Assembly (NCBI GenBank): GCA_964599625.1
Contig: CAZRGC010000002.1
Coordinates: forward strand, 71,883 to 135,882
Origin: an uncultured Gammaproteobacteria bacterium
Lineage (GTDB): Bacteria > Patescibacteriota > Microgenomatia > UBA8517
DNA: 64,000 nt
Direction: 5' to 3'
Positions within the stretch are counted from its first letter, which is position 1. Each line of letters begins with the position of its first letter. The notes beneath the pieces were generated by a model, which saw only the letters and a list, made by a program, of their open reading frames with translations, was not told the DNA's origin and made no database searches. A program made the position numbers and the translations under genes. Positions 26,901 through 49,800 of the stretch are shown here, in pieces.

Positions 26901-29900
26901 AGTTAAGTGTTGTGGTTGTTGCGTTAAGCAGAGAGAAGCTGGTCTCGTCTGTGGTTATGGAGGCACCATTCACAGCTAAGGCATTGTTTACAGTTGTTGT
27001 TCCGCTACCCGCACCAATTCCTAAAGTTGATGCATTAGTGAATAGGTTTGCAGTAGTTTGAGTTGTTGTCAGATCACCCCCGTTGACTGCAACATCACCT
27101 GTACAAGTTAAGTTTCCAGTGGAGTTGGCAATTGTACAGCCAGTGGAAGCGCTTCCGCCTGCAATTTCCACATCTCCTGCAGAAATATTGTTCAATTGAA
27201 GTGCTGAAGAGTTACCTGAATCAAGTCTTAAGATGCTGCCTGATTGGCTATTGGATATTGAATGAATACCTGTTCCTGTAAAAGAAATTCCCGCTGCGGC
27301 TCCGGTGAATGTTTGTCCTGTTGTGCCCGCCAAAGAAACGTTACCCGTGGAATCAACTGTGTAGTAGGTTGTGCCAGAGTTATCAAATCTAAGGAAGTTG
27401 CCGGAGAAGTTCCCGCCTCCAGCATTATCAAGATCTGCAAAGATTGCATTTCCCGAGAAAGCGTGTCCGTCACCACCACTACCGAGTTTGACAAGGTTAC
27501 CTGTTGTTATAGCAGAGGCTGTGGCCTCGAAAACGTTTCCAGTTGTAATGACTGATGAGTTAAGCTTTGCAATTCCACCGTTTGTGTTTTCGATGCCGTA
27601 TGCCAAGAACTTTGCAGACGAGGTTGAGTTACCACCCACAACAACATCGTATGTTTGATTGGATGGGTAAAGTGTCTGATTTAAAAGTGCCCAGTGGCTT
27701 GCACCCGCAGGACAGTTGGCACCACTACTGTCACAGACTGCAAATCCGTTTTGTGTGAAGGCGTTGGCATACACATTATCCCAAGGAAGAGACCCACTTC
27801 CCAAATCATTTGTTCCTGTTGTTGTTATCGGAATCAAGTCGACATCCTGTGCCACTCGGCCTGTGAATGTGATTGTGTCTGTAATTGCATCACCAAGTGT
27901 AGTGTTTCCGTTAACTGACAAGTCTCCTAAATCTGTAACGTTTTGGTTGTTGCCTGTGATGGCACCTGTTAATGTAAGCGCTCCCAATCTAAGTGTTCCG
28001 GAAGATGCCGTAATGTCGTGATTGCCGGCACCAGTAGCAAAAGTAAAATCAGAGTCTGCACCTGTTAGTGTAATTCCTGTCGTGCCTGTTGAAGATATGT
28101 TGCCATTAGCATCAATCTGGAAAGCGTCACCTGTTCCACTTGTTAAAGTTCCTGATATATCCAAATTTCCTGTAACGTTTGTGTTGTCTTGAAGTTCGAT
28201 AGTTGAACCTGAAACCAATATAACTTGATCAGAAGATGTCAATGTTAAGTCATTTCCTGCTCCGTTTGCCGTAACGTTAACAACCGATCCCTGCAGGGTT
28301 GTTGTTTGTCCTGTTGCGCCAATCACCAAAGCTCCGCCTGGTGTAATATTGAGTGCCCCGGATGATGTTATATCACCGCCGTTTATTGCTGCATCTCCTA
28401 ATGTAGAAATGTTACCTGCCGAATTAACAGTAAACTGTGTTGCGCCTGCATTATCAAATCTCAAGAAGTTTCCTGTAAAGGAACTTCCACCTGTGTTGTC
28501 AAAGTCCATAAATATTCCGTTACCTGTGAAATTTCCATTGTCACCACCTGTGCCAAGCTTTACCAAATTTCCTGTTGTTATTGCACTGGCTGTTGCTTCA
28601 AACACGTTTCCACTTGTGATTACTGTTGAATTGAGTTTGGCAATATCTCCTGAAGCTGTCTCTACACCAAACACCTGGAAAGCAGAACCGGTTGCAGTTC
28701 CTCCGATTGTTAAGTCGTAGGTTGAGTTGGCGGGGGAGATTATTTTGTTATTGAGCTGCCAATAAAGGCTTCCTGCTGGACAGTTGTTGCCGCTTGCGTC
28801 ACAGACCCCAAAACCGTTTTGGGTGAATGCTACTCCGTAAACGTTGTCCCATGGAAGTGACGCGCTTCCCAAATCATTTGTTCCTGTTGTTGTTATCGGA
28901 ATCAAGTCGACATCCTGTGCCACTCGGCCTGTGAATGTGATTGTGTCTGTAATTGCATCACCAAGTGTAGTGTTTCCGTTAACTGACAAGTCTCCTAAAC
29001 CTGTAACGTTTTGGTTGTTGCCTGTGATGGCACCTAAAAGAGTAAATGCTCCAAGTCTGAGTGTCCCAGCTGTTGCTGTTATATCGTGATTGCTTGCGCC
29101 GGTTGCAAAAGTTATATCAGAATCTGCTCCTGTAAGGGTGAGCCCTGTTGTGCCTGTTGAACTCAAATTCCCATTTGCGTCAACTTGGAATGCGTTACCA
29201 GTCCCGCTTGTTAAAGTTCCTGATACATCCAAATCTCCTGTTATGTTTGTGTTGTCGACTATTTCTACACTTGTTCCCGCGTTAAGGATTATTTGATCTG
29301 CTGACGTTAAAGAAATGTCATTTCCGGCGCCATTTGATGTAAGGCTTGCGGTTGACCCTTGCAGTGTAATTGGTTGGGTGGTTACTCCGGCAACCAGTGC
29401 TCCTGTGGGAGTGATATTCAAAGCACCCGATGATGTTATATCACCGCCGTTTACTGCAACATCACTTGCCACAATGTTTCCGCTTGAATCAAAGTGGAAT
29501 GTTGTTCCTCCGCCAACGGAATAACCTGCAGAATTCTGCAAATACCCCGACACCCCAGTTAATGAATTTGAATTGGGGAGTGTGAATGTTCCTGTTGCTG
29601 TTAAGTTGGCTCCATTTGCAGTGAGTGCTACACTTCCTCTTGAGTTAATTACAACATTTCCTGTTTCTGATCCGCCAAGTGTCAGGTCCGACATGTTTGT
29701 TGTTGCTAGATTGCCGTTGCCTGTCAGGTATGTTGCAACGTCCGCAACTGAACCAGAAACAGAAGCTGTTGGAACTCCTGAGGCCACATTTATAAATGCG
29801 AATTTAGCGGATGAGGTTGCATTGGAACCAACCAAAAGATCGACGGTGTTATTTACATTGTAAAGCGCCCCTAGTGCCTGTGCCCAATATCCTGCACCTG

Positions 29901-32900
29901 CTGGACAGTTATTGCCGCTTGCGTCACAGACCGCGTTTCCGTTTTGGAACAGATTTACTCCATAGATGTTATCCCAAGGAAGTGAGCCAGACCCCAAATC
30001 ATTTGTTCCTGTTGTTGTTATCGGAATCAAGTCGACATCCTGTGCCACTCGGCCTGTGAATGTGATTGTGTCTGTAATTGCATTACCCAGAGTTGAATCT
30101 CCATTGAGAGTGGTGTTGCCGGTTACGGATAGTCCGTTATTAACCGTTGTTGTTCCGCTACCTGCACCAATACCAAGTGTTGATGCATTAGTAAATATGT
30201 TTGCAGTAGTTTGAGATGTTGTTAGGTCACCACCGTTAACGGCAACGTCGCCTGCTGCGGTAACATTCCCTGAAGAATCAACAGTAAACACGGTACTTCC
30301 TGAGTTATCAAACCTCAAAAAGTTACCTGTGAAGTTGCCACCACCCGCATTGTCAAAATCCATAAAGATTCCATTACCAGAAAATGCATGCCCATCTCCA
30401 CCAGTCCCAAGTTTAACCAAGTTGCCTGTTGTTATCGCACTTGCTGTTGCTTCAAACACATTTCCTGTTGTTATTGCACTTGAGTTTAGTTTTGCTATAT
30501 CTCCACCAGCATTCTCAATTCCAAACACCTGGAATGCAGCACCCGTGGCATTTGAACCAACCGTTAGGTCGTAAGTTGAATTAGCAGGGGAGAGAACTTT
30601 GTTTGCAAGCTGCCACCAGCCTTGGGTTCCACTTGTTGCAGTTGAGGTGATATTCCCCGAACAGGTAAAGTTGCCTGTTGTTCCGTCAAGCGTACAACCT
30701 GTATCTCCACTTCCACCGGAGATTGCTACTAATCCACTGGAACCTGTTGGCCCGATATTTAGTGTTGTTGCGGCTCCTGCAAAGTTGATTGTTGTTGCAT
30801 TGGTATTCAAAAGGTTGGCAGTTCCTGCTGTTGTTGTTATATTTCCACCGTTTGCAGCTATATCATTGGCAACTATATTACCGCTGCCGTCAAAACGGTA
30901 GGTCGTACCTCCGCCAACCGAATAACCTGCCGAATTCTGTATATATCCTGAAACACCTGTCAGAGTATTTGAATTGGGGAGTGTGAATGTTCCTGTTGCT
31001 GTTAAATTAGCTCCGTTTGCAGTGAGTGCCGCTGAACCTCTGGAATTTATAACGACATTGCCAGTTGTTGATCCACCCAAAGTCAGATCCGACATGTTTG
31101 TTGTTGCCAAGTTTCCGTTGCCCGTCAGATATGTGGCTACATTTGCCACTGAACCTGCGATTGTTGCAGTAGGAACTCCAGATGCAACATTTGTGAATGC
31201 AAACTTTGCGGATGTTGTTGCATTTCCCCCTATAAGAAGATCTGTCGAGTTGTTGGTTGGGAAGAGTGCTCCCAGGCTTTGATTCCAGTAACCGGCTCCT
31301 GCAGGACAGTTGGCGCCGCTTGCGTCACAGACCGCATTTCCGTTTTGTACAAAAGCATCGGCATACACGTTGTCCCAAGGAAGCGAACCGCTTCCCAAGT
31401 CATTTGTTCCTGTTGTTGTTATAGGGATTAAATCGCTGTCTTGTGCAACACGACCTGTGAATGTGATTGTGTCTGTGATTGCGTTGCCGAAGACTGAATC
31501 TCCGTTAAGGTTTGTGCTGCCTGTAACACTTAATGCGTTGTTAACTGTTGTTGTTCCGCTACCTGCACCCAAACCAAGTGTTGTTGCATTCAAAAATACG
31601 TTAGCTGTTGTTTGATTAGTTGTAAGGTCGCCCCCGTTTACAGCTACATCACCGGCCGATGTTAGATTGCCGTTTGAATCAACTGTAAACACAGTACTTC
31701 CTGAGTTATCAAATCTCAAAAAGTTACCTGTGAAGTTGCCTCCGCCTGCATTATCGAGGTCTGCAAAGATAGCGTTACCTGAAAAAGAGTGTCCGTCTCC
31801 GCCTGTACCAAGTTTAACTAAGTTACCGGTCGTAATGGCGGAAGCTGTTGCTTCAAATACGTTTCCTGTTGTTATTACTGTTGAGTTAAGTTTGGCAATA
31901 TCACCACCTGTATTCTCGATTCCAAATACTTGGAATGCTGAGCCGGTTGCACTTCCTCCGACTGTTAGGTCGTAAGTTGAGTTAGCAGGGGAGAGAACTT
32001 TGTTTGCAAGCTGCCACCAACCCTGTGTTCCGGATGTTGCAGTTGAGGTGATGTTGCCGGAACAGGTGAAATTTCCTGTTGTTCCGTCAAGCGTACAACC
32101 TGTATCTCCACTTCCACCGGAGATTACAACCGTTCCACTGGAACCTGTTGGCCCGATATTTAGCGTTGTTGCGGCTCCTGCAAAGTTGATTGTTGTTGCA
32201 GTTGAATTTACAAGGTTAAAAGATGTTTGGTTTGTGGTGAGGGTTCCTCCGTTTACCGAGAGCGTATTGTTAACCGTTGTTGTTCCGCTGCCTGCACCAA
32301 TTCCCAAAGTTGTAGCATTTGTGAATAGGTTTGCAGTAGTTTGAGTGGTTGTCAGATCACCACCATTAACTGCAACATCTCCTGAACAGGTTAGATTTCC
32401 TGTAGCGTTTGCAATTGTACAACCTGTTGTGCCGCTTCCTCCCGCTATCTCAACATCTCCGGTTGATGAGTTGTTTAACTGTAAGTTGGCGGCGTTTCCG
32501 GAGTCGATTGTGAATACGCTCGCAGAGTTTGAATTTGTTATGGAATGAGTTCCAGATCCACTGAATGTTATGTCTGCACCTGTTCCGCTTTCTGTTATAC
32601 CTGTTGTTCCTTGAACGGTAAGATTTCCGGCAACAACAGTGGAAGCGTTATTGATTGTTGTTGTTCCGCTTGTGTTTCCGATTGATATTGTTGTTGCTGC
32701 AGCCCCAATATTCAAAGCTGTTGCGTTTGTGTTGAAAACGTTTGCGGTTGATGATGTTGTTGTCAAATTTCCGCTATTGGCCGCCACATCTCCTGCCGCC
32801 GTCATGTTACCGGAGGCATCAACTGTAAATCTTGTGCTTCCTGCGTTATCAAATCTTAAAAAGTTACCGGTAAACGAACTGCCTCCTGCGTTGTCAAAAT

Positions 32901-35900
32901 CCAAAAATATTCCGTTTCCTGTGAAATTGCCGCTATCTCCACCTGTCCCAAGTTTGATTATATTTCCGGATGTTATGGCACTGGCTGTGGCCTCAAATAC
33001 GTTTCCTGTTGTTATTACTGTTGAGTTAAGTTTGGCAATGTCACCATCTGTGTTTTCGATTCCAAACACTTGGAAAGCCGACCCTGTTGCTGTTCCACCA
33101 ATTGCCAAGTCATAAGAGGAGATAGAAGGCGAGATTATCTTGTTGTTTAGCTGCCAATAAGTTGCGTTTACAGGACAGTTGGCACCACTGCTATCACAGA
33201 CATTAAAACCATTTTGTACAAAAGCGTCTGCGTACACATTGTCCCAGGGCAAGGAAGAACTGCCCAAATCATTAGTTCCTGTTGTAGTTATCGGAATTAA
33301 GTCGTTGTCTTGTGCCACTCGTCCCGTGAATGTAATTGTGTCTGTGATTGCGTTTCCAAGAGTTGTATCGCCATTTACAACCAATGCATTATTAACTGTT
33401 GTTGTTCCTGATGCCGCACCCAAGTTAACTACTGTTGCAGCACCTCCAACGTTCAAAGTTGTTGCATTTGAGTTAAAAAGTGTTGCAGTTCCTGTCGAGC
33501 TTGTTGTTAAGTCGGCACCGTTTACCGCTACATCACCTGCAAAAGTTCCTGCATTGGCATTGATGTTTCCGCTTCCGTCGAAATAATAAGTTGTTGCCCC
33601 GCCTACAGAGAAGCCTGCCGACGACTGCAGATAGTTTGCAACACCTGTGAGTGTTATTGAGTTGGGGAGGTTAACGACACCTGTTGTTGTTATGTCACCA
33701 TTTGCTCCAACTGTAAATCTTGTGTTTCCTGCGTTGTCAAATTTAACAAAGTTTCCTGTAAAACTTCCTCCGCCTGTGTTGTCGAAATCTGCGTATATTC
33801 CGTTACCAGTAAAATTCTGATCTCCGCCTTCACCAAGTTTGACCAAGTTCCCCGAAGTTATTGCGGAAGATGTCGCACTCAACACGTTGCCTGTTGTGAT
33901 ACCTGTTGAATTAAGCGTTGCCAAATTGCCGCCAGAAGTTTCCAAAGCGTAGGCTTGGAATTTGGCTGAAGTTGTTGCGGTTCCACCGACTGCCAAATCA
34001 TGTGTAATATTGGCAGGGGAGAGAACTTTGTTGTTAAGTTGCCAATAATTCACGGATGAACTTGCCGGACAGCCCGATCCAGTTATGTCACAGACTGCGT
34101 TACCGTTTTGATACAGGTTTGTTCCGTATATATTTGCCCATTGAAGAGCGCCACTTCCCAAATCATAAGTGTTGTTGGTTATGGGTAAGACGTTTGTGTT
34201 TACTCTTCCCACAAAAGAAATTCCGTCTGTAATGGCATCGCCCAAAGTTGTGTCACCTTTGACCAAGAGAGAATTGTTGAGGGTTGTCGTTCCGGAAATT
34301 GCCCCGATGTTGATTGCAGTTGCAGCACCTGCAAAGTTAACAGTTGTTGAGTTGGTGTTTATTAACGAAAAACTTGTTTCGTCTGTAGTTATCGACGAGC
34401 CATTTACTGCCAATGCATTATTAACTGTTGTTGTTCCGCTGCCTGCACCAATTCCCAAAGTTGATGCATTTGTGAATAAGTTTCCCGTAGTTTGAGTTGT
34501 TGTCAGGTCACCGCCGTTGACCGCAACATCTCCCGCTGCGGTAACATTCCCAGAAGCGTCAACTAAAAAGTTTGTTGCTCCTGCATTATCAAATCTCAAA
34601 AAGTTTCCTGTAAAACTTCCTCCGCCAGTATTGTCAAAATCTGCATAAATTCCATTTCCTGTAAAGTTTTGATTTCCACCCTCGCCGAGTTTGATTATAT
34701 TTCCTGATGTTATGGCACTGGCTGTTGCTTCAAAAACATTTCCTGATGTGATTACACCAGAAGTGATTTTAGCCAGGTTGCCTGTGGTCTTTTCTACTCC
34801 AAACACCTGGAAGGCCGAACCTGTTGCACTTCCTCCAACTGTCAAATCATAAGTGGAATTGGCAGGGGAGAGAACTTTGTTGTTAAGCTGCCACCATCCT
34901 TGAGTTCCGCTTGTAGCCAGTGAGGTGATGCTCCCGGAACAAGTGAAATTTCCGCTGGATCCGTCTAGCGTACAACCTGTGTCTCCGCTTCCACCCGAGA
35001 GTGTTATTACACCAGCGCCTCCGTTTGGACCAATGTTAAGTGTATTGGCAGCGCCTGCAAAATTAATCGTTGTTGCATTTGTGTTAAAAAGTGTGGCACT
35101 CGAAGCACTTGTTGTAAGGTCGCCTCCGTTAACTGCAACATCTCCGCCAAATGTTCCGGCGTTTGCGTTAAGATCTCCGCTTGCAGAAAAGTTGTATGTA
35201 TCACTTCCTCCAACAGATACACCCTGAGATAATCTTAGGAAGTTGCTAACGCCTGTGATTGTGTTTGTGTTGGGGAAGGTAAATGTCCCAACAGTTGTAA
35301 GGTTGGCTCCATTTGCTGTTAGGGCGGCCACACCCCTGGAATTTATGTTGATATTACCTGTTGTTGATCCACCCAAAGTCAGGTCCGACATGTTTGTTGT
35401 TGCAAGATTGCCATTGCCAGTCAGATATGTGGCAACATTAGCGACAGATCCAGCAATGCTTGCGGTGGGAGTTCCTCCGTTAACTCCTGTAAACGCAAAC
35501 TTTGCGGAGCTTGTGGCATTTGAACCTATGAGAACATCTACTGAATTATTTTTGGGGAAGAGGGCTCCGTTTGTTTGTGTCCAGAATATTGAAGCTGCAG
35601 CCGCTGCAGAAGGGTCAACCCAAGACAAAGCCCCGGCACCGTCAGTTTGCAAAATATAACCTGAACTTTGCGAACCAGGCCAGGTGTAGGGGATTCCGCC
35701 AAAAGTTGTAGTACCACTTACAACCAGATTGTTATTTATTGTTGTACTTCCGGTTCCAGCTCCAAGGCTTAGTGACGTTGCGCCACCGCCAATGTTTAAA
35801 GCTGTCACCCCTGAGTTCAGTAAGTTAAATGTTCCCGATGTTGAAGTTATGTCGCCGCCGTTTACCGCCAAATCGCCTGCTGTTGTTGTATTGCCGTTTG

Positions 35901-38097
35901 CAACATTAACACTGAAGTTTGCACCGCCAACTGTGAGGTTTGCACCCGTAACGTCGACACCGCTTGTTGCGTCTACATTCCCGGCGATTGTTACTTGGCC
36001 TGTTGAATTAAGGCTTATTTCACCTGTTCCGCTTGTTGAAAGTGTTAACCCGGCAGTTGCTATGTCAGTGTTTGCGTCCAATGTCAGATTGTCTTTAAGC
36101 TGCGCAAAATCAAACGAATCGTTTGCAACTGAAACGTTTCCGGAAGAAACTGTAAAAAAGTTGGGGTCAAACGAGGCCACACCCACAGTGGATGTTGTAG
36201 CATTTGACCCTGTTACTGTAAGGGTGCTTCCTGATTGGGAAGTTGTGATTCCGTTTGATCCCGCAATTGTTTGGGTTCCGCCCAAGGCCACAGCTGACGA
36301 GCCGCTGTCACCCGCAAAAGTTATAGAGTTATTGGCGAGTTCGCTATTGGCAACACATCCAGTACAAGTTATTTCGGATGCTGTTATCGTTCCTGTTCCA
36401 GAGAAGGTGAGTGAGGATCCTGTTCCCACAACCATAGCTGCAGCTGTATTGGTTCCACTTGTCAGGTCTGCAAAAGAACCGGAAAAAGAACTGGTGCCTG
36501 TTGCTACCAATACCCAAGTTGCGCCGTCCCAGTAATAAATTTTGTCATCTCCGGAGTTGTAAACAATCGAACCTTCGCCAATTGCCGAAGGATTTGTTGT
36601 GAATCTGCCGAGTTGCAACTGCCCGTTAAAGATTGCGTTTCCTGTGTTTACTTTAAGCGCGGCCGCGTCGTTCCAGCCGTCATATCTATTGAGCACAAGT
36701 GTTGAGTAGCTTGAGTTTGCAGTGGTTGGTTTTCCTCTTTCATCAAGTGTCAAAGTCATTAAGTCGTTGAGCGCTCCGCCGGTAGCTGGCTTTTTGACTA
36801 TCGAGGCATATTCTCCGGCTCCTTGGTTTATTGTGAAGTTGCCAGAGTTTTGGGAGTATCCTGTTATGTTTTCCAGAGCACCGGCGCCTGTTAGTCTTTG
36901 TACGCCGCCTGTTGATATGTCGTTTTTAACTAGTAAATCGTCGCCAACTGTCAGGTCCCCGGCGGTAAAAGTGTTTCCAACCGCGTCTATCGTGAACTTG
37001 GATGTCATTTTGGGGGAGCCTGACTGAAGGTTCATCAAGTAATAACCAGTTGAGTTGTTTGGAACCATTCCGTAATAGAGTGATCCACTCGTTAGGTTGG
37101 GACCTTGTACATTCAAAAGGTCGCCTTTGTTGGCTTCAAACAAAAAGTGAACATATCCTTTGCCGTCAGGATTTACTTCAATGTTTCCGTCGCTTCCGTC
37201 TGCTGTTTTAATTGTCACCGCCTGACCTTCCATTAAGAAGTTGCCAGTCTTGGCTTTGATTGCGGGGGATTCACCTGCAAGCATTAATGCGCCATCGCTA
37301 TTGATTATGGGAACTGTCAGTGGACCGGCACCAACTGAAGGTTCAGCCGCCAAATAACCATTGAGGTTTGTAGAGGTATTGGCAGTGTTAACAGGAATTC
37401 TCATAACTCCAGATGAAGAACCAATTGATGGTTCCAAAAACAGTTTGTCGTTTTTGAAAAAAAGATCTGTTGGAACTTGATCCAAAGATATCAAAGCAGA
37501 ACCATTTGCATCAGTTTTTATCTGTTGAGCTGGGGATGAATAAAGTTCTGCACCTCCTGCAGATTGATTGTAAAGTTTGAAGGAGAGTGTTTCTGTGCCA
37601 ACTCTTGGGCTCCCGTTTGAATCTGTTAATGTCAGCTTTGCAAAAAGATTCCAGTAAGAATTAACCGCAGTATTTGCGGAAATGGCAATTGGCGAGCTTG
37701 ATGGGGATGGGGCAGCTGGGTTTACTGTAACAGTCTGCACTCTTGTATTCGGAACAGACTCGGCAGCGGGTGTAATTGTGAAGGGGATTGCGAATTGCAA
37801 CTTCCAAGTAAGAAGAAACAAAACAACAATTAAAGCACCGGTAAGAGTAAGTGTCATGAATACTCTTGGGTTTTTTTTCTTTGCGGGGGTAACGATTGTG
37901 TAGGGATTTGAATTCTCCACAACCGGCTTTGGTTGACTCAATGGATTGGAATCAATGTGACCTTGATTTTGAGCCCAGTCAAAAAATCTGTTAAGTGAAA
38001 TCTGTTTTCTCTTGAGTGTTGCAGCAGAAGAATTTTTCCCAATCTGTTCTTGATAGGCTTTTACTAATTCGGGTGATACGTTGGGTAGTTTTGCCAT
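20914..38097 (-). CDS. Giant (5727 aa) membrane-anchored surface protein. It has an N-terminal integrase-SAM-like half-domain, one TM helix, a T/G/N/S-rich repeat region, a LamG-like domain and a conserved C-terminal domain.
   Basis: Single uninterrupted ORF. The N-terminus ATLKRKQISLNRFFDWAQNQGHIDSNPL is SAM-like. TM is VFMTLTLTGALIVVLFLLTW. At least 6 copies of the module ITFTGRVAQDxDLIPITTTGTNDLGSGSLPWDNVY...CDASGANCPAG. One LamG/ConA-like domain (WFKH...WHHLVAVKD...IYLYIDG). The C-terminal ~350 aa are shared with the 46804..58254 protein and end in FNWWIVQTE. Confidence 0.85.
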   Translation of the reverse strand: MAKLPNVSPELVKAYQEQIGKNSSAATLKRKQISLNRFFDWAQNQGHIDSNPLSQPKPVVENSNPYTIVTPAKKKNPRVFMTLTLTGALIVVLFLLTWKLQFAIPFTITPAAESVPNTRVQTVTVNPAAPSPSSSPIAISANTAVNSYWNLFAKLTLTDSNGSPRVGTETLSFKLYNQSAGGAELYSSPAQQIKTDANGSALISLDQVPTDLFFKNDKLFLEPSIGSSSGVMRIPVNTANTSTNLNGYLAAEPSVGAGPLTVPIINSDGALMLAGESPAIKAKTGNFLMEGQAVTIKTADGSDGNIEVNPDGKGYVHFLFEANKGDLLNVQGPNLTSGSLYYGMVPNNSTGYYLMNLQSGSPKMTSKFTIDAVGNTFTAGDLTVGDDLLVKNDISTGGVQRLTGAGALENITGYSQNSGNFTINQGAGEYASIVKKPATGGALNDLMTLTLDERGKPTTANSSYSTLVLNRYDGWNDAAALKVNTGNAIFNGQLQLGRFTTNPSAIGEGSIVYNSGDDKIYYWDGATWVLVATGTSSFSGSFADLTSGTNTAAAMVVGTGSSLTFSGTGTITASEITCTGCVANSELANNSITFAGDSGSSAVALGGTQTIAGSNGITTSQSGSTLTVTGSNATTSTVGVASFDPNFFTVSSGNVSVANDSFDFAQLKDNLTLDANTDIATAGLTLSTSGTGEISLNSTGQVTIAGNVDATSGVDVTGANLTVGGANFSVNVANGNTTTAGDLAVNGGDITSTSGTFNLLNSGVTALNIGGGATSLSLGAGTGSTTINNNLVVSGTTTFGGIPYTWPGSQSSGYILQTDGAGALSWVDPSAAAAASIFWTQTNGALFPKNNSVDVLIGSNATSSAKFAFTGVNGGTPTASIAGSVANVATYLTGNGNLATTNMSDLTLGGSTTGNININSRGVAALTANGANLTTVGTFTFPNTNTITGVSNFLRLSQGVSVGGSDTYNFSASGDLNANAGTFGGDVAVNGGDLTTSASSATLFNTNATTINFAGAANTLNIGPNGGAGVITLSGGSGDTGCTLDGSSGNFTCSGSITSLATSGTQGWWQLNNKVLSPANSTYDLTVGGSATGSAFQVFGVEKTTGNLAKITSGVITSGNVFEATASAITSGNIIKLGEGGNQNFTGNGIYADFDNTGGGSFTGNFLRFDNAGATNFLVDASGNVTAAGDVAVNGGDLTTTQTTGNLFTNASTLGIGAGSGTTTVNNALAVNGSSITTDETSFSLINTNSTTVNFAGAATAINIGAISGTTTLNNSLLVKGDTTLGDAITDGISFVGRVNTNVLPITNNTYDLGSGALQWANIYGTNLYQNGNAVCDITGSGCPASSSVNYWQLNNKVLSPANITHDLAVGGTATTSAKFQAYALETSGGNLATLNSTGITTGNVLSATSSAITSGNLVKLGEGGDQNFTGNGIYADFDNTGGGSFTGNFVKFDNAGNTRFTVGANGDITTTGVVNLPNSITLTGVANYLQSSAGFSVGGATTYYFDGSGNINANAGTFAGDVAVNGADLTTSSTGTATLFNSNATTLNVGGAATVVNLGAASGTTTVNNALVVNGDTTLGNAITDTITFTGRVAQDNDLIPITTTGTNDLGSSSLPWDNVYADAFVQNGFNVCDSSGANCPVNATYWQLNNKIISPSISSYDLAIGGTATGSAFQVFGIENTDGDIAKLNSTVITTGNVFEATASAITSGNIIKLGTGGDSGNFTGNGIFLDFDNAGGSSFTGNFLRFDNAGSTRFTVDASGNMTAAGDVAANSGNLTTTSSTANVFNTNATALNIGAAATTISIGNTSGTTTINNASTVVAGNLTVQGTTGITESGTGADITFSGSGTHSITNSNSASVFTIDSGNAANLQLNNSSTGDVEIAGGSGTTGCTIANATGNLTCSGDVAVNGGDLTTTQTTANLFTNATTLGIGAGSGTTTVNNTLSVNGGTLTTNQTSFNLVNSTATTINFAGAATTLNIGPTGSSGTVVISGGSGDTGCTLDGTTGNFTCSGNITSTATSGTQGWWQLANKVLSPANSTYDLTVGGSATGSAFQVFGIENTGGDIAKLNSTVITTGNVFEATASAITTGNLVKLGTGGDGHSFSGNAIFADLDNAGGGNFTGNFLRFDNSGSTVFTVDSNGNLTSAGDVAVNGGDLTTNQTTANVFLNATTLGLGAGSGTTTVNNALSVTGSTNLNGDSVFGNAITDTITFTGRVAQDSDLIPITTTGTNDLGSGSLPWDNVYADAFVQNGNAVCDASGANCPAGAGYWNQSLGALFPTNNSTDLLIGGNATTSAKFAFTNVASGVPTATIAGSVANVATYLTGNGNLATTNMSDLTLGGSTTGNVVINSRGSAALTANGANLTATGTFTLPNSNTLTGVSGYIQNSAGYSVGGGTTYRFDGSGNIVANDIAANGGNITTTAGTANLLNTNATTINFAGAATTLNIGPTGSSGLVAISGGSGDTGCTLDGTTGNFTCSGNITSTATSGTQGWWQLANKVLSPANSTYDLTVGSNATGAAFQVFGIENAGGDIAKLNSSAITTGNVFEATASAITTGNLVKLGTGGDGHAFSGNGIFMDFDNAGGGNFTGNFLRFDNSGSTVFTVDSSGNVTAAGDVAVNGGDLTTSQTTANIFTNASTLGIGAGSGTTTVNNGLSVTGNTTLNGDSTLGNAITDTITFTGRVAQDVDLIPITTTGTNDLGSGSLPWDNIYGVNLFQNGNAVCDASGNNCPAGAGYWAQALGALYNVNNTVDLLVGSNATSSAKFAFINVASGVPTASVSGSVADVATYLTGNGNLATTNMSDLTLGGSETGNVVINSRGSVALTANGANLTATGTFTLPNSNSLTGVSGYLQNSAGYSVGGGTTFHFDSSGNIVASDVAVNGGDITSSGALNITPTGALVAGVTTQPITLQGSTASLTSNGAGNDISLTSADQIILNAGTSVEIVDNTNITGDLDVSGTLTSGTGNAFQVDANGNLSSTGTTGLTLTGADSDITFATGASNHDITATAGTLRLGAFTLLGAITGNNQNVTGLGDLSVNGNTTLGDAITDTITFTGRVAQDVDLIPITTTGTNDLGSASLPWDNVYGVAFTQNGFGVCDASGNNCPAGSLYWQLNNKIISPANSTYDLTIGGTATGSAFQVFGVETASGDIAKLNSTVITSGNVFEATASAITTGNLVKLGTGGDNGNFTGNGIFMDFDNTGGSSFTGNFLRFDNAGATQFTVNSAGNISTLGDAAINGGDITSSGALNITPGGALVIGATGQTTTLQGSVVNVTANGAGNDLTLTSSDQVILVSGSTIELQDNTNVTGNLDISGTLTSGTGDAFQIDANGNISSTGTTGITLTGADSDFTFATGAGNHDITASSGTLRLGALTLTGAITGNNQNVTDLGDLSVNGNTTLGDAITDTITFTGRVAQDVDLIPITTTGTNDLGSGSLPWDNVYANAFTQNGFAVCDSSGANCPAGASHWALLNQTLYPSNQTYDVVVGGNSTSSAKFLAYGIENTNGGIAKLNSSVITTGNVFEATASAITTGNLVKLGSGGDGHAFSGNAIFADLDNAGGGNFSGNFLRFDNSGTTYYTVDSTGNVSLAGTTGQTFTGAAAGISFTGTGIHSISNSQSGSILRLDSGNSSALQLNNISAGDVEIAGGSASTGCTIANSTGNLTCTGDVAVNGGDLTTTQTTANLFTNASTLGIGAGSGTTTVNNALAVNGASITTDETSFSLLNATTTTLNFAGAATTLNIGPTGSGTASIVFEGGSGDTGCTMDGANGNLTCSGAITTTATSGTQGWWQLANKVLSPANSTYDLTVGGNATGSAFQVFGIENAIGDIAKINSTVVTTGNIFEATASAITSGNIIKLGQAGPANFTGNGLSFDFDNTGGGSFTGNFIYATNSLATMFIVDASGNVTANGDLAVNGSDITTTGSGPATIFNTNATSLSLGGAATTALNIGNGSGNYSAINIGSGNGDNTVNVATGTGNNSVNISTGGTGTNNVAIGGETGTTNLIVTSGSDTSDITTIYGLGLTSGNFLAMRSDDNRTAFAWNDQDTNIAGQKDQTQIANLTDTFVYDTTQDPDGGLWRNDERAKGSSWYNEASGATRGSRREFPEKAILVSTTTALYIYDAKDNSLWMEFDKGSGVTEQMIGATTSSTGSSTFGLNGKIYYTANSSSGALFVIDFKVDRAQKFNSTNDFYSDKNIANRNTTVTWTSGPSSPIADSAANDVHARTYRGKTYVAVATDTGVSVINETDNVVYSYSDATNDDYNTALISQTGDMYALNETSQQLERWNSVVTDSASELNGTPDNVWDETGVKIAGAGAVAGPYLFASAQTINVSPSDLAVTTGTSKIDGKSDTIFVGHNGGLTVIDDKKGDESNGSAKYYNSSYISEQMIGDIRGSWTFNGSGTIADNANATDVSVKGNVLDADNANGTGFTYASGVRGTGVTLDNTDDFFCSDANNDNTCDTDSDYDFGTGSFSVSTWFKHSVSAPPAAPNDDVIIDHTYNTTPAAVLGWKIWMNSAGTITFGIDDDATWTNADPTDDQATTSRTFLDNSWHHLVAVKDSTNAIYLYIDGELAASDVSLTATGTLTGTGVILGVGADCSTGAACATGANFWNGDLDELTITAEAMTVSQIKKMYQVGQRALSSHNASAIANVTADNYQRLMGNASGGTSTSNRVMSVGIDSGSQFIYAGINDASGNTGGVTVVGIDSDSAVDLYDNTANTTKDSDNSTQYSANDVISLSVAGFPCIAYNSGSSSCDTKATLSIAGIDGSGNNQAWMETTNTSLYSTLATLTSPNQTKNAVTVNNVFQVYNNYNNITNTTTGEVIQTPAMSVDSNGNFTYNYFGPSTSANAMTYTDSANLTTGDLFNIVASNALTTGNVIDINSAVYTQTAANTGSLVNLALSNTSSNTSGNSIVNGLNITGTLNTTGATGTKEFNMFNVSAPTLTGCTGGTCAYSGLKVSPASAGSGITEYGINIANLSGAGAGTETALSIGSGWDTDIALVDTSPIITIGDGGTLSLTDGTNTLAQLYDAGTAGVLGVSKNLLVGTVTGLTTRTFSRFSTADTTSDHALSTAGDVLINGNLEVDTGLYLDGKNIYNTNGTATIVLCTGQSGAACATTSALENTLSAGSWVIDNQSNVGEPALAVNNGKGGDLIVASAGGVLRFRVATNGDVFLGDNSGTDLTVGGGTGKIDVGTVDPPYTINGKKYATYLASMIGVKEEVSGSTQTTEYLPGVGYRTVIDFNAQPEGSDLWLFGKTTNMNENIGKLTALLTPNFPTKTWYEVDQSNKRVNIYSAMPAQISYRLTGPRFDAANWLNTRTEGVAGFIINNADIVTNFAENIQAARLGDFVIEKVSDGMGIATYSLKNASGQVIDGIESIGNFVAANIKTGALQAEEIATQTINATQISAQDMLISMGLIAPDFKTKLIAPLAEETDITVQIGSATESGRLAITNAQNEEVASISSTGDATFSGELYARNIHSENLDQIRDILTQVQEDQALLSESQNWNTSTSTASGSFGQLATADLYVTNQAALNSLSVTQTATIGNDLVIASTGINTLSEPLKIQDLALAPVEIMAGLVTIDTSGNVAIAGNLDVAGTVSTSTLAVKDISGNQVSSIDASGSATFASVNVSQIIVAGAQDATNSAVVNGEIHTNSTVGKGVLPANSADITIRNPKVNDYTFVYITPTSNTQNNVLYIKEKGNGYFKVGFTSPIPEDTNFNWWIVQTE
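24190..24850 (-). other. LamG/Concanavalin-A-like lectin domain within the giant protein.
   Basis: FGTGSFSVSTWFKHSV...GWKIWMNSAGTITFGIDDD...NSWHHLVAVKDSTNAIYLYIDGELAA...GDLDELTITAEAMTVSQIKKMYQ. Same architecture as the repeats in 58256..63193. Confidence 0.6.
26300..35700. repeat. Intragenic tandem repeats (period about 1.1-1.3 kb) inside the giant gene, with near-identical stretches of about 90 nt.
   Basis: The string ccaaatcatttgttcctgttgttgttatcggaatcaagtcgacatcctgtgccactcggcctgtgaatgtgattgtgtctgtaattgcat recurs almost exactly at about 27.80, 28.87 and 29.99 kb. Diverged copies lie at about 31.39 and 33.26 kb. Confidence 0.8.
37950..38097 (-). other. Cytoplasmic integrase-N-terminal SAM-like (core-binding) half-domain at the N-terminus of the giant protein.
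   Basis: VSPELVKAYQEQIGKNSSAATLKRKQISLNRFFDWAQNQGHIDSNPL matches the C-terminal half of XerD/phage-integrase N-terminal domains (sinrrlsalrsFf.wl...g....nP). Confidence 0.5.
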
Positions 38098-38103
38098 ATA
38101 TTT

Positions 38104-38628
38104 TTAGTTTCTGATTTCGAAATTTCCTTTGTTCTCATCCATCCAGGCAAGAAATTGTTTGACATCCGAAAGATAGTTTTTGAGTGTGCTTGAACTTACT
38201 TTTTCAGCCTCCAAAAAGGCTTTAAAATCATCAACTATATCAAAAGACATCTTTGGGCTTGGAGTTGATTTTTGTATGGGGGAAATATTTTCTACGCCTT
38301 GTGTAAAATCGTAGTTGGCAATTTGGGTGGCAACCATAAATCTAGCAAAATGACGAAGTGTTGAAAGTCTTCTATTGATTGATCCAACAGGCTGATTATT
38401 TTCTGACATGTAGCTTTTATATTCCTGGGCAATGTTTTGGTTAAGGAAGGGAACGGCTTCTGTTAGGGACTCAACATAAGATCCCAAAGACCTGATTTTA
38501 AGAATTAACCAGCCGGTGAAATGTGACAAATCGCTTCTGTAGTTTTTGTGAGATTTTGGAGAAACGCCCAAAGTGTCAAGGTATTTTGAAAACTCTTTTT
38601 TGACGATGTCGTTATCAAATTTGGGCAT
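38104..38628 (-). CDS. Small cytoplasmic protein built from tandem phage-integrase N-terminal SAM-like domains. No recombinase catalytic domain.
   Basis: SPKSHKNYRSDLSHFTGWL plus SINRRLSTLRHFARFMV form one full domain. SSSTLKNYLSDVKQFLAWM is the first half of a second. The stop TAA is followed after 6 nt, in the same frame, by the ATG of the giant ORF. Confidence 0.6.
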   Translation of the reverse strand: MPKFDNDIVKKEFSKYLDTLGVSPKSHKNYRSDLSHFTGWLILKIRSLGSYVESLTEAVPFLNQNIAQEYKSYMSENNQPVGSINRRLSTLRHFARFMVATQIANYDFTQGVENISPIQKSTPSPKMSFDIVDDFKAFLEAEKVSSSTLKNYLSDVKQFLAWMDENKGNFEIRN

Positions 38629-39022
38629 TTTGTAATTATGGCTAAATTAGACGAATTATACTGATTAGACTATTATTAAAAAGCTACGGGAGGCTGTCAA
38701 GAGGCTGTTTGCTATTCAAAAAAGCTATCACGTTACCTTTATTTTCACAGTGTATGTAGTATAATTACCGCATGGTTTTTACGCATAAATTTCGATACAT
38801 GATATATTTTGAAATACCCGTATAACATGCGAATAAGGCTATTTTTTTGATTTTTCGTAGGCACAAAGTCAATTTTGCGGAAAACCGCGGTTAATTTGAG
38901 AAAAGAAAAAAGTTTGCGGAAAAGGAGGCTGTTAACCTCCAAATCCGAAAGTTTTGTTGCCTTGCCACTATAAACACTACAGGTCGATGTTTTGTATTTG
39001 GTTACGCTTGATAAATAATGTA

Positions 39023-41770: not shown

Positions 41771-41815
41771 CAAACTCTTGTTGCAACCCTTAGTAAAAGG
41801 GAATTAAATTAATTT

Positions 41816-46803: not shown

Positions 46804-49800
46804 ATGTCCAAGTTTATAAAACACTGCCCAATGAGATATCTAAAGATTGCCCAAGCTGCTCAAAGATTAGGAGTATCCACAAAAACCTTAAGAAGGTGGG
46901 AGAAAAGCGGAATACTCACACCCAGAAGGACTCCGGGAGGCCAAAGAGTTTATCTTGCAAGCTCTATAGAAACCTTTGTAAGGCCGGAGAAACAAACAGG
47001 AAAAACAAAAACAAGATTTGTAGCCAAAACATACGAAGTCAAAAATAGCTTCAATTATAAAAGTTTTGCTTACGGCGGAATTGCGTCGGCATTTGCAGTT
47101 CTTTTGTTCTTTAGTCTTTTTAAAGTTGATTTGAGTTTGAGGCTGCCCCAGGAAAGTTCATCTAACGTATTGGGTGCCAACACACAAAGAAACCCGGTTA
47201 TAGCTTTTGTAGACGATTTGGTGAAGCCTGTATTCGGATTTTTTGCCAATAGCGCCAAAAGGATTGAGCTGGCCCTATTCAGTTTCAATGTTAATCAGGA
47301 TATAAGCCAAGGTCAAACGATTATTCAAACAGCAAGCCAGGTGGGCGGAGGGTCGGAGATAGCAGACAGATCGGTTACTGGTGTAAAGATCGCAATTCAA
47401 ACAGTACTTAACGAAAATATTGCCAGAGGCCAAATCAGCGTGGACAGGTTAGTTTCAAACCTCGTCTTTCCGTCAACATATCTTTTAGATCTCTCAGAAA
47501 TAAAACATACAACAACATCAAATACTGGCTTAATACTTCCAAATACATCAAGTTCATCTCCATCCAAGCCTACAAGCGGTGAAGGATATCTGGCATATGA
47601 CACTTCGGGAAACCAGCTTATCCTTTATAACGGTTCCAACTGGCAGACTATTAGCGGAGGAGGGGGCGGAGGAAGCGGAGATATAACAACTGTCACTGCC
47701 GGGGACGGACTAACCGGCGGGGGTGGCTCAGGAGACCTTACCTTAAACATTGTCGGGGGAAGTGGTTTTTTGGTTTCTGGGGATCAAATTGATTTGGATG
47801 TAACAACTACGGGAACAACATCAACGACATCTTCAAATTCTGGTTTGGAGGTTACAACAGCGGGATTGTCTCTTATGAGAGGTTGTTCCAATACACAAAT
47901 ATTGAAATGGAATGCGAGTACACAGGTGTGGTACTGTGCAGCAGACAATAGCGGAAGTGGCGGATCTTTAGATATAGAAGAGGGTGGAAGCACAGTCGTG
48001 ACCAGCCCAACAGCGATTAACTTTACGGCATCTGAATTTTCTGTCACAGAATCACCAAGTGGAGTCGGTTTGATAGCTATTGATTACGTTAATTCAAAAA
48101 TTAGCAGGTATGATGCCACAGAAGTTCTTACCAACAAAACAATCTCTGCAGGAAGTAACACAATAACAGGTCTTACAAACTCCAACCTTTCCGGAAGTGC
48201 GGGAATAACAAACGCCAACCTCGCAAATTCATCAGTTACCATTAACTCTTCGGGAATCCTCACAGGTGGCGGATCTGTTTCTTTGGGAGGCAATATTACG
48301 CTTGCAGCGACAGAGGCTGACACACTGGCTGCAGTAGTTTCCAGAGGAGCCACCACCACAACTTTAGTTAATTTGAATGGTGGAATAATCTCTCAAGGTG
48401 CTGTTGCAGGAAAAGCGCTTGTGAGAATTGACGAAACTGGGGATCAGAATCTATTGGTTGCAAGCGCTTCAGGAGTTACAAAATTCACATTAGACAGATC
48501 GGGTAATGTTGCAGCCTCCGGAACTGTTACTGGTTCCAACCTCAGCGGCACCAATACAGGTGACCAAACAATCACTTTAACGGGAGATGTAACAGGAAGC
48601 GGAACAGGAAGCTTTGCAACTACGATTGCCACAAACTCAGTTGCACTTACAACAGACACCACAGGTAATTATGTTGCAACAGGAGCCTCGGGGAATGGAG
48701 TTTCTTTGACAGGTGGTGGTTCTGAGGGGGCAACTCTTACCGCTAATCTTGGTGCTTTGACAGGTGATTGGGATCAAACAGGTGCTTTTGATATTGCTCT
48801 CAACAATTCTTCGTCTGAACTCAAGATTTTAGAATCAGGATCAACACCAACCTTGTTCGGCATCTTTGATGTTGGAGATCTGAGCTCATCTGACTCTACA
48901 TTCACTTTCTCTGGGAGTTCTGGTACTGTTTTGACAAGTGCTAACGTTGCATCTGCCCTGTCAGGGTGGGACCAAAATTCCAGTGACGATTTAACAACAG
49001 GCAACTATGGTGCAACCCTCGACTCTGTTTATGTAAATGTTGCCGAGTCGCCAACCTCTGCAGATATTGCAGGAAGTTTTTCGGGAGGACTTACTCTAAA
49101 TTCAAACACAGTTGACGATTCGGAGCTTGTTGATGCACTCACATACACAGGGGCGTTTTCAGTTGGAAATCTTACAATTTCTGACACGAATGTACCTCTT
49201 ACGGGGGCCTCGTTAACTTTCGATTTTAATAATGCCAGCGATAGAACCCTTACAATTGCAAATGCAGGAGCAGGAACTGCAAATTTGTCAGTTGACGGTA
49301 CAATCGCCGCTTCAAACTTCTCAGGTTCATCAAGTGGCACCAATACAGGCGATCAGACTATTACATTAACGGGAGATGTAACAGGAAGTGGAACGGGAAG
49401 CTTTGCAACAACAATTGCAGCCAACTCTGTTGCATTAACAACAGATACGACAGGTAATTATGTTCAAAGCATAACAAACGGAACAGGAATCACAGGAGGC
49501 GATGGTGGCGCAGAAGGATCAACCCTAACATTAGCAGTTGATCAAGCTGCAAATTTTACGTTAACAGGAAATAACACATTTACACCTTCCTCAACAAACG
49601 ATTTAACAATAAATCTGGATGCAGACTCAACGCTTTCAGAAGTTTTCTCAAGTAGCACAAATTCAACAAGTGCAGTGACTCAATCTATAACAAACTCTGC
49701 ATCAAGTGGAACAATTACAGTTAACGGAAACGATATAACTTTGGTAGGAACTGACAATGCAGGCGGTGCTAACACCATTAATGCTTTCAAATTTGAAAAC

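What the first reader, a model, noticed from the sequence alone, without database searches (positions are those of the whole stretch)
37930..38628. Integrase-type SAM-like (core-binding) domains without a recombinase, and one such domain split by an in-frame TAA between the 174-aa ORF and the giant ORF
ORF 38104..38628 contains one complete integrase N-terminal SAM-like domain (SPKSHKNYRSDLSHFTGWL ... SINRRLSTLRHFARFMV). It also contains the first half of a second (SSSTLKNYLSDVKQFLAWM). The matching second half (ATLKRKQISLNRFFDWAQNQGHIDSNPL) is the N-terminus of the giant protein, at the spacing of about 40 aa expected within one domain. The two ORFs are in the same reading frame and are separated only by TAA plus two sense codons (AAA TAT), which are followed by the giant's ATG. 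This suggests three alternatives. It may be one ancestral gene of about 5900 aa interrupted by a nonsense mutation or sequencing error. It may be programmed stop-codon readthrough giving two isoforms. It may be a recent fission. No tyrosine-recombinase catalytic domain is present in the window, so this is not a mobile-element integrase.
Basis: seen in the sequence. Interest (0 to 1): 0.8.

Follow-up and report, generated by a model that had tools for sequence, protein, structure and literature searches.

The report
Conserved split DNA-binding domain on giant protein
In a group of tiny uncultured bacteria (Woesebacteria), a small DNA-binding-type domain at the inner end of a giant surface protein has been cut in two by an old, conserved gene split, so its two halves are made as separate proteins that most likely snap back together; it is not a sequencing error or a read-through signal.

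Summary
The minus-strand ORF 38104..38628 (174 aa) carries one complete integrase core-binding (CB, "SAM-like") domain plus helices A-B of a second. Helices C-D open the 5727-aa ORF 20914..38097. The junction is TAA AAA TAT ATG, in frame.

- The identical junction occurs in three independent assemblies, one from a 98.3%-identical strain.
- 23 species-level orthologous loci are split at the same loop. Only 11 are in frame. The rest overlap, sit in other frames, have a tandem stop, or have a whole gene inserted between the two ORFs.
- Among the 150 best 50%-identity cluster representatives, 76 giants begin exactly at helix C, and 31 or more are fused.
- Both halves are under purifying selection (dN/dS 0.07-0.28).
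- A rough tree suggests repeated switching between fused and split states.

Best reading: an old gene fission inside a domain, kept as a two-gene operon, whose products reassemble into a four-helix CB domain. This would dock a soluble 1.5-CB protein onto the cytoplasmic tail of a membrane-anchored giant surface protein. Reassembly and DNA binding are inferred, not shown.

A strongly conserved promoter/operator-like element lies just upstream.

The parts
38639..38706 (-). Conserved promoter/operator-like element upstream of the small ORF. It reads TTGACA-17-AATAAT followed by AGTCTAAT-C-AGTATAAT-TC-GTCTAAT-TTAGCC, that is, direct GTNTAAT repeats about 9-10 bp apart.
   Evidence: An 11/12 sigma-70-like match lies at 38700-38672. 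There are 25 invariant columns across 23 species-level loci (A6), although coding dS is saturated. The element occurs exactly once in each of the 33 loci held, including the fused ones. It is unique in the 64-kb window. No conserved RNA structure was found.
38104..38628 (-). Small gene (174 aa): a soluble protein with 1.5 core-binding domains and no hydrophobic segment.
   Evidence: Supported by ORF and translation and Pfam. There are 339 homologs, and the best 120 are all 154-181 aa long. No TM-like segment was found.
38329..38595 (-). Complete CB (Phage_int_SAM_1) domain 1, aa 12-100 of the small protein.
   Evidence: Pfam gives 53.5 bits, E 3e-14. The AF2 helices have pLDDT above 90.
38131..38241 (-). 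First half (helices A-B, aa about 130-166) of CB domain 2, at the C-terminus of the small protein.
   Evidence: Pfam SAM_4 profile 2-35. F135, L139, K143, S145, T148, K150, N151, Y152, S154, D155, F159 and W162 are invariant in 28 homologs. dN/dS is 0.07-0.28. AF2 places helices at 130-141 and 146-166.
38098..38106 (-). Junction: TAA stop of the small gene plus the 6-nt spacer AAA TAT before the giant's ATG, in the same frame.
   Evidence: The junction is identical in three independent assemblies.
37960..38085 (-). Second half (helices C-D, aa 5-46) of CB domain 2, at the N-terminus of the giant protein.
   Evidence: Pfam SAM_1 profile 41-83. The motif Y..e....sS.aT.KRK..sl..FfdWA is conserved in 23 loci. 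dN/dS is 0.07-0.17. The AF2 helices have pLDDT 93-95.
37795..37869 (-). The single transmembrane helix of the giant (aa about 77-101), preceded by PAKKKNPR. The predicted topology is N-terminus inside.
   Evidence: This is the only Kyte-Doolittle segment above threshold in 5727 aa. AF2 places a helix at 251-275 of the concatenated sequence. The topology itself is inferred from the positive-inside rule.
37000..37698 (-). Conserved membrane-proximal extracellular module (giant aa about 134-366), shared by split and fused relatives.
   Evidence: 49-58% identity to P0001-P0006. Matched by most of the top 150 representatives.
20914..38097 (-). Giant gene (5727 aa): a membrane-anchored surface protein with a Laminin_G_3 domain near its C-terminus.
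   Evidence: Orthologs reach up to 5818 aa.

Best explanation
This is an old, conserved gene fission that cuts the second of two cytoplasmic core-binding (CB) domains in the loop between helices B and C.

The ancestral protein had this order: CB domain, CB domain, one transmembrane helix, giant ectodomain. That form is still found fused in relatives. In the window's lineage (Candidatus Woesebacteria / Microgenomates) the first 1.5 domains are a separate 174-aa soluble protein. The giant begins with the remaining half domain.

The two genes sit in one operon behind a strongly conserved promoter and are translated separately, with the giant's start codon a few bases from the small gene's stop. 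The most likely mechanism is non-covalent reassembly of the A-B hairpin of the small protein with the C-D hairpin of the giant into one four-helix CB domain. This would dock the small protein, with its intact and basic CB domain 1, onto the cytoplasmic tail of the giant surface protein.

Shown:
- the domain assignment;
- conservation of the split;
- the existence of fused relatives;
- purifying selection on both halves;
- operon layout.

Inferred:
- physical reassembly;
- N-in topology;
- any DNA binding;
- translational coupling.

The in-frame layout in this window is a feature of its clade, not a readthrough device.
For: - Domain split: the two halves each match half of the Pfam profile, and together they match the whole profile 1-83.
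- Conservation of the split: 23 distinct loci from species-representative genomes and metagenomes have the small ORF immediately upstream of a giant starting at the same M..LP.(I/V)(S/T)P motif. Gaps range from -17 to +15 nt in 21 of the 23.
- Small-protein family: 339 homologs, with the best 120 all 154-181 aa long.
- Census: an exhaustive HMMER search of 1.84 billion representatives gave 1451 hits. Among the top 150 plus seven earlier hits, 76 giants start with Met within 4 residues of the start of the half domain, and about 31-40 proteins carry the junction fused in one chain.
- Selection: dN/dS is 0.07-0.28 on both half domains while dS is about 1 or higher. Half-domain residues are invariant across 28 small proteins.
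- Interchangeable states: fused and split forms interleave on two distance trees, with a Fitch minimum of 11 changes on the ectodomain-based NJ tree and fused forms as the deepest branches.
- Structure prediction: AF2 of the joined domain gives four helices, pTM 0.79, with helix pLDDT mostly above 90. All top Foldseek PDB hits (probability 1.00) are tyrosine-recombinase CB domains: XerD 1a0p at rmsd 2.1 A over 99 columns, XerA, lambda Int, Cre and Brujita Int.
- Not an error: the identical junction is present in three independent assemblies, one of them a 98.3% identical strain.
- Operon: a conserved promoter lies upstream and there is no terminator between the genes.
Against: - No experiment or two-chain model shows that the halves bind each other. 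AF2 was run on a covalently joined chain with a shallow alignment for the C-D hairpin (effectively the query plus one fused homolog), so it mimics the fused state.
- The A-B and C-D hairpins resemble each other in sequence. Homotypic pairings (A-B with A-B, or C-D with C-D) are therefore conceivable.
- Charge complementarity between the halves is seen in the window (pI 4.8 against 9.7) but is not general across orthologs.
- The trees are unbootstrapped neighbour-joining trees, so the number of fission and fusion events is only indicative.
- Low-level readthrough in the in-frame lineages cannot be excluded from sequence alone.
Confidence: 0.65

Rival explanations
1. Programmed stop-codon readthrough. 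Ribosomes sometimes read through TAA at 38106-38104 and make a 5904-aa fused isoform alongside the two separate proteins.
For: In the window and in 10 of the 22 other split loci the two ORFs are in frame, with 0-5 sense codons between them. The fused state is clearly functional in relatives.
Against: - 12 of 23 loci are out of frame or overlapping (ATGA; -11, -17; gaps of 5, 7, 8, 10, 11, 127 and 404 nt).
- The in-frame locus L002 has TAA TAA.
- L022 has an entire 23S_rRNA_IVP gene between the ORFs.
- 11/23 in frame is not significantly above one third (P = 0.11), and the in-frame loci are phylogenetically clustered.
- TAA is the usual stop in this genome.
- The regions scanned revealed no conserved RNA structure. 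Rfam has no hit in the window.
- UAA readthrough is not an established regulatory device in bacteria (own knowledge).
Confidence: 0.06
2. Artefact or pseudogene. The stop is a sequencing or assembly error, or a recent inactivating nonsense mutation in a single 5900-aa gene.
For: The in-frame stop sits inside a recognisable domain, which is the classic signature of a pseudogene. Some related contigs do show fragmented giants (L001 and L004).
Against: - The same junction occurs in three independent assemblies from different runs, one with 42 SNPs elsewhere.
- The split is shared by 23 loci and 76 cluster representatives.
- Both halves and the giant are under purifying selection.
- A 17-kb ORF stays open downstream.
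Confidence: 0.01
3. A split without reassembly. After the fission the two hairpins took on separate roles. For example, the small protein could be a free DNA-binding regulator that dimerises through its A-B hairpin, while the giant's C-D hairpins pair with each other or bind another partner.
For: The two hairpins are similar enough that MAFFT aligns one on the other, so homotypic four-helix bundles are sterically plausible. Gene adjacency could simply reflect co-regulation. L022 and L020 tolerate long spacers.
Against: The small gene is found upstream of the giant in all 23 split loci examined. Repeated interconversion of fused and split states is what is expected when the covalent and non-covalent forms are equivalent (the Rosetta-stone principle, own knowledge). 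Half-domain residues that form the hydrophobic core in the full profile stay invariant.
Confidence: 0.22

Closest known systems
Core-binding (CB / Phage_int_SAM_1, PF02899) domain of tyrosine recombinases such as XerC/XerD, XerA, lambda Int and Cre
   Same: Both share the four-helix fold and sequence profile. Domain 1 and the rejoined domain 2 pass the Pfam threshold. The AF2 model superposes on XerD, XerA, lambda Int and Cre CB domains with probability 1.00 and TM-score 0.6-0.72.
   Different: There is no catalytic domain anywhere in the gene pair. The domains are tandem, followed by a transmembrane helix and a giant ectodomain. One domain is divided between two polypeptides. DNA binding is untested.
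Split genes / gene fission with complementing fragments in reduced genomes, for example the split genes of Nanoarchaeum equitans (own knowledge; no paper on it was read)
   Same: A protein that is contiguous in relatives is encoded as two ORFs. Both parts are retained under selection and are presumed to reassemble.
   Different: Here the cut lies inside a small four-helix domain rather than between domains. The genes stay adjacent in one operon. The state appears to have switched between fused and split several times within one bacterial lineage.
ToxR/CadC-type membrane-tethered one-component regulators (own knowledge)
   Same: The order of parts along the chain matches: an N-terminal cytoplasmic DNA-binding-type domain, a single transmembrane helix, and an extracytoplasmic domain. 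A second giant in the window has the same layout with a MerR HTH.
   Different: The DNA-binding fold differs (CB or MerR, not winged helix). The ectodomain is thousands of residues long and adhesin-like. No regulatory activity is shown. The conserved repeat element upstream is only a candidate operator.
Programmed translational readthrough or recoding
   Same: There is an in-frame stop between two ORFs whose products form one domain.
   Different: The frame relation is not conserved among orthologs, no recoding signal was found, and tandem stops and inserted genes occur.

Membership tests
Tyrosine recombinase (XerC/XerD/phage integrase) | C-terminal catalytic domain (Phage_integrase, PF00589) with the R-K-H-R-H/W-Y active site | tested here: not met
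   Pfam finds only SAM-like domains in the small ORF and the giant's N-terminus. There is no PF00589 hit in the two overlapping halves of the giant or in the other ORFs scanned.
Tyrosine recombinase (XerC/XerD/phage integrase) | Full-length match to curated XerC/XerD equivalog models | tested here: not met
   TIGR02224 scores 67.3 bits against a cutoff of 335, and TIGR02225 scores 62.7 against 329.6. Only model positions 2-102 of about 295 are matched.
CB / Phage_int_SAM_1 domain (PF02899) | Score above the Pfam gathering threshold over the whole profile | tested here: met
   Domain 1 scores 53.5 bits over profile 3-81. Domain 2 rejoined across the stop scores 41.4 bits over profile 1-83 (cutoff 22.3). 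The giant's half alone scores 16.8 bits, below the cutoff.
CB / Phage_int_SAM_1 domain (PF02899) | Four-helix CB fold | tested here: met
   The AF2 model of the joined domain has pTM 0.79. Foldseek against the PDB returns CB domains only among the top hits. This is a prediction on a covalently joined chain.
CB / Phage_int_SAM_1 domain (PF02899) | Binding to DNA core-type sites | not testable with these tools
   There are only indirect hints: domain 1 has pI 9.6 and the giant's tail pI 9.9, and a conserved repeat element lies upstream.
Gene fission with complementing halves (split protein) | Contiguous (fused) homologs exist | tested here: met
   P0004, P0163, P0160/L026, L023 and about 30 representatives carry the junction in one chain.
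Gene fission with complementing halves (split protein) | Both fragments retained together and under purifying selection | tested here: met
   23 of 23 split loci have both genes adjacent. dN/dS is 0.07-0.28 on both halves.
Gene fission with complementing halves (split protein) | Physical reassembly of the fragments | not testable with these tools
   Only a single-chain AF2 model is available. No multimer prediction or experiment was possible.
Programmed stop-codon readthrough | In-frame relation and readthrough context conserved among orthologs | tested here: not met
   11 loci are in frame and 12 are not. Other variants are TAA TAA, overlaps and an inserted gene. The binomial P is 0.11.
ToxR-like membrane-tethered transcription regulator | Cytoplasmic DNA-binding domain, single TM helix and extracytoplasmic domain in that order | tested here: inconclusive
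   The order of parts fits. However, topology rests on a hydropathy scan and the positive-inside rule, the DNA-binding fold is different, and regulation is untested.

The most novel reading that the evidence does not exclude
The split CB module is a contact-signalling switch of an episymbiotic bacterium. The giant adhesin's cytoplasmic C-D hairpin holds the soluble 1.5-CB protein at the membrane. Engagement of, or tension on, the ectodomain would release or capture it. The free protein would then bind the conserved GTNTAAT direct-repeat operator in front of its own operon, and possibly other sites. If so, the non-covalent break in the domain is the regulated step. The MerR-headed second giant in the window would be a covalent variant of the same idea, a membrane-tethered transcription factor on a giant surface protein.
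Probability: 0.1. Interest if true: 0.85.

Novelty: new variant of a known kind. Interest (0 to 1): 0.6.

Why it matters
Patescibacteria (the CPR) make up a large share of bacterial diversity, live attached to host cells, and devote a remarkable fraction of very small genomes to giant surface proteins of unknown function.

This locus shows that one widespread family of such giants carries recombinase-type DNA-binding domains on its cytoplasmic end, without any recombinase. In a whole lineage, one of these domains is encoded in two pieces that must find each other.

Three concrete, testable consequences follow:
1. It offers a natural split-domain pair, two hairpins forming a four-helix bundle, that evolution has repeatedly fused and unfused.
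2. It provides a cytoplasmic handle (the CB module plus a conserved candidate operator) for asking what giant CPR surface proteins signal or anchor inside the cell.
3. It has practical value for annotation. More than 300 database proteins of this family are labelled XerD or site-specific integrase, although the member tested here lacks the catalytic domain. The downstream giants are not pseudogenes.

Tried and rejected
- The third homolog search, using only the junction region, returned just 7 small proteins and gave no census.
- MAFFT placed the giants' N-terminal hairpin on the small proteins' A-B hairpin. As a result, the alignment behind the first AF2 model had almost no depth for the C-D hairpin. 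I removed those rows for the second model.
- Foldseek with the 540-residue model was uninformative because the multi-domain model diluted the scores. The single-domain model resolved this.
- A direct sequence search of the PDB with the joined domain found nothing significant.
- A 12-bp-arm palindrome at 39023-39051 looked like a possible Xer-type site, but it is not conserved in the orthologous loci.
- No conserved RNA secondary structure was found in the upstream element, and Rfam had no hit in the window.
- Charge complementarity of the two halves holds in the window but not generally.
Only 9 of 169 matches had a CB-family gene downstream, so it does not test specificity.
- I first took P0210 (3816 aa) to be the window's second giant. 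It is not, and the claim of a shared membrane-proximal module between the two window giants was withdrawn.
- Literature searches for this architecture found no description. This covers only the held open-access library.

Full report
**1. What is in the sequence**

On the minus strand, ORF 38104..38628 encodes 174 aa and ends in TAA. The next two codons are AAA TAT. Then comes the ATG of a 5727-aa ORF (20914..38097) in the same frame.

Pfam gives the following:
- The small protein has a complete Phage_int_SAM_1 (core-binding, CB) domain at aa 12-100 (53.5 bits, cutoff 22.3).
- At aa 132-165 it matches only the first 35 positions of the SAM-like profile.
- The giant's first 46 residues match only profile positions 41-83.
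- Joined across the stop, the two pieces match the full profile 1-83 (41.4 bits, E 1.7e-10).

NCBIfam XerC/XerD models match only through their N-terminal 100 positions and score far below their cutoffs. No integrase catalytic domain was found in the ORFs scanned. TAA is an ordinary stop in this genome, and all three stop codons are in use.

**2. It is not an error**

The exact 174-aa protein and the identical TAA AAA TAT ATG junction occur in three contigs assembled independently from three sequencing runs. One of these is a strain with 42 substitutions over 2.5 kb.

**3. The split is conserved**

The closest giants in the protein database all start at the same M..LP.(I/V)(S/T)P motif. Their contigs carry a 166-173-aa CB protein immediately upstream and a divergent leucyl-tRNA synthetase beyond it, as in the window.

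The small protein has 339 homologs. The best 120 are all 154-181 aa long. Sources name them "XerD", "site-specific integrase" or "CB domain-containing", in Candidatus Woesebacteria / Microgenomates.

A scan of species-representative genomes added 24 loci. Across 23 distinct split loci the junction varies:
- Gaps are -17, -11, -4, 0, 0, 3, 3, 5, 5, 6 (six loci), 7, 8, 8, 10, 11, 15, 127 and 404 nt.
- 11 loci are in frame and 12 are not.
- One in-frame locus has TAA TAA.
- One has a 23S_rRNA_IVP gene between the two ORFs (PF05635, E 1e-35).

An in-frame share of 11/23 is not significantly above one third (P = 0.11), and the in-frame loci cluster phylogenetically. What is conserved is the cut position and the adjacency of the genes, not the frame. 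This argues against readthrough or frameshifting as the conserved mechanism.

**4. Fused relatives exist, and the state has switched**

P0004/L004, P0163, L023 and L026/P0160 carry both hairpins of domain 2 in one chain, with an 8-15-residue loop.

An exhaustive HMMER search of 1.84 billion cluster representatives with the joined sequence gave 1451 hits. I classified 153 proteins, namely the top representatives plus seven earlier hits, using hairpin-specific HMMs:
- 76 proteins start with Met within four residues of the start of the C-D hairpin and have no A-B hairpin. Their median length is 1784 aa and the maximum is 5818 aa.
- By alignment span across the junction, 31 of the top 150 are fused, with up to three CB domains; the hairpin-HMM architectures suggest up to about 40.
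- About 28 are small 1.5-domain proteins.

On a neighbour-joining tree of the region downstream of the cut (88 proteins), the window's clade is uniformly split and the deepest branches are fused. Fused and split forms interleave elsewhere, with a Fitch minimum of 11 changes. A second tree, built on the cytoplasmic module, shows the same interleaving.

These trees have no support values, so the count is only indicative. The qualitative point is that the two states have interconverted more than once. This fits with both hairpin-linker subfamilies containing both states.

**5. Both halves are functional**

In 28 small proteins the half-domain residues are invariant: F135, L139, K143, S145, T148, K150, N151, Y152, S154, D155, F159 and W162. 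They are as conserved as their counterparts in domain 1.

The giant's N-terminal hairpin keeps the motif Y..e....sS.aT.KRK..sl..FfdWA in all 23 loci.

Pairwise dN/dS is 0.07-0.28 for the small half and 0.07-0.17 for the giant half, wherever dS could be estimated. dS is about 1 or saturated. The fission is therefore old.

**6. Structure and topology**

AF2 on the joined sequence predicts domain 1 with pLDDT above 90. For domain 2 it predicts two helices from the small protein (130-141, 146-166) and two from the giant (its residues 9-22 and 25-44), with pLDDT 93-95. A transmembrane helix follows at giant residues 77-101.

The domain-2-only model has pTM 0.79. Its top Foldseek hits in the PDB are exclusively CB domains of tyrosine recombinases: XerD 1a0p at rmsd 2.1 A over 99 columns, XerA, lambda Int, Cre and Brujita Int.

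The giant has a single hydrophobic segment at aa 77, preceded by KKKNPR. The small protein has none. The CB module is therefore inferred to be cytoplasmic and the remaining 5600 residues extracellular.

Caveat: the models are of a covalently joined chain with little alignment depth for the C-D hairpin.

**7. Expression**

An 11/12 match to the sigma-70 consensus (TTGACA-17-AATAAT) lies 44 nt upstream of the small ORF. No terminator-like site lies between the two genes.

This promoter is part of a 65-nt element that continues as AGTCTAAT-C-AGTATAAT-TC-GTCTAAT-TTAGCC. Its properties:
- It has 25 invariant columns in 23 loci, although synonymous sites in the adjacent genes are saturated.
- It occurs exactly once in every locus held at that point, fused ones included.
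- It is unique in the window.
- It has no conserved RNA structure.

I read it as a promoter plus a protein-binding site. Whether the CB module binds it is speculation.

Shine-Dalgarno motifs are essentially absent from the whole window. The lack of one before the giant is therefore not informative. Translational coupling by proximity is plausible but only inferred.

**8. Mechanism**

The best-supported reading is a two-gene operon whose products rebuild one four-helix CB domain from two helix hairpins. This would dock a soluble protein carrying an intact, basic CB domain (pI 9.6) onto the cytoplasmic tail of a giant membrane-anchored surface protein.

The repeated interconversion of fused and split states is the strongest indirect argument that the covalent and non-covalent forms are equivalent.

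The main rival is that the hairpins no longer pair with each other. They resemble each other in sequence, so homotypic bundles are possible.

Readthrough remains possible only as a minor, lineage-specific by-product. The artefact and pseudogene readings are excluded.

**9. What the module does**

This is unknown. By analogy of layout, it resembles ToxR/CadC-type membrane-tethered regulators. The window's second giant (46804..58254, 3816 aa) has a MerR HTH, one TM helix and a giant ectodomain. This suggests a recurring theme of DNA-binding heads on giant surface proteins in this organism.

Membership in the tyrosine-recombinase family is rejected because there is no catalytic domain. Membership in the CB-domain family is accepted.

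**10. Novelty**

Gene fission and split proteins are known phenomena, and so are CB domains.

What appears undescribed is the combination seen here:
- a recombinase-less tandem CB module heading giant Patescibacteria surface proteins;
- a conserved cut inside one small domain;
- repeated fused/split switching;
- a family-specific conserved upstream element.

None of this appeared in the library I could search. I rate it a new variant of a known kind, with interest 0.6.

Noticed in passing
window 38639-38706 (-); the same element lies about 40-60 nt upstream of the CB gene in L001-L033: A strongly conserved 65-nt element: TTGACA-17-AATAAT followed by three direct GTNTAAT repeats 9-10 bp apart and TAGCC. 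It has 25 invariant columns in 23 species-level loci, occurs once per locus (also in fused loci), and is unique in the window. It has no RNA structure. It is a candidate promoter plus operator.
   Followed up: partly
window 46804-58254 (+): A second giant ORF (3816 aa) with an N-terminal MerR HTH (aa 14-57, E 2e-13), one TM-like segment at about aa 87-108, and a giant ectodomain. This is the same head/TM/giant layout with a different DNA-binding fold. It shares a C-terminal region of about 300 aa (42% identity) and one 101-aa stretch (61% identity) with giant #1, but not the membrane-proximal module.
   Followed up: partly
window 9-12946 and 16041-17279 (+): A tandem array of at least 12 paralogous genes (326-502 aa, 20-53% pairwise identity). 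Nearly all have an N-terminal hydrophobic anchor, and none has a Pfam hit.
   Followed up: partly
L022 2856-3263: A complete 23S_rRNA_IVP / bAvd-like four-helix-bundle gene (PF05635, E 1e-35) is inserted between the small CB gene and the giant. It is flanked by GTATCTCGTAT-type repeats.
   Followed up: partly
L020 3502-3632: A 127-nt spacer between the two genes begins with a short ORF, MTKLPQT..., that resembles the usual giant N-terminus (M.KLP). The giant restarts downstream at MDHFSNITPELV. This looks like an insertion just after the original start.
   Followed up: no
L004 4001-5299: The fused relative P0004 is only 432 aa long (two CB domains, a TM helix and about 180 extracellular residues). 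The downstream genes are not homologous to the giant, so this is a truncated, re-fused derivative.
   Followed up: partly
window 39176-44416 (+); L004 1-3500: Leucyl-tRNA synthetase, ComEA-like (SLBB + HHH_3), ComEC (Competence) and a metallo-beta-lactamase-domain ORF lie divergently next to the CB/giant operon. LeuRS, ComEA and ComEC are in the same arrangement in L004. It is unknown whether the DNA-uptake genes are functionally linked to the operon.
   Followed up: no
whole window: Almost no gene has a Shine-Dalgarno-like motif upstream. No Rfam family reaches its gathering score anywhere in the 64 kb.
   Followed up: no
small ORF aa 130-166 against giant aa 5-46: The A-B and C-D helix hairpins of the CB domain are similar enough in sequence that MAFFT aligns one onto the other (S..T.K.Y...…F..W pattern). 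The domain is an internal hairpin repeat, cut exactly between the repeats.
   Followed up: partly
window 39023-39051: An inverted repeat with 12-bp arms and a 5-nt spacer (ATTAGCAATCGC / GCGACTGCTAAT) lies in the divergent intergenic region. It is not conserved in the orthologous loci.
   Followed up: yes
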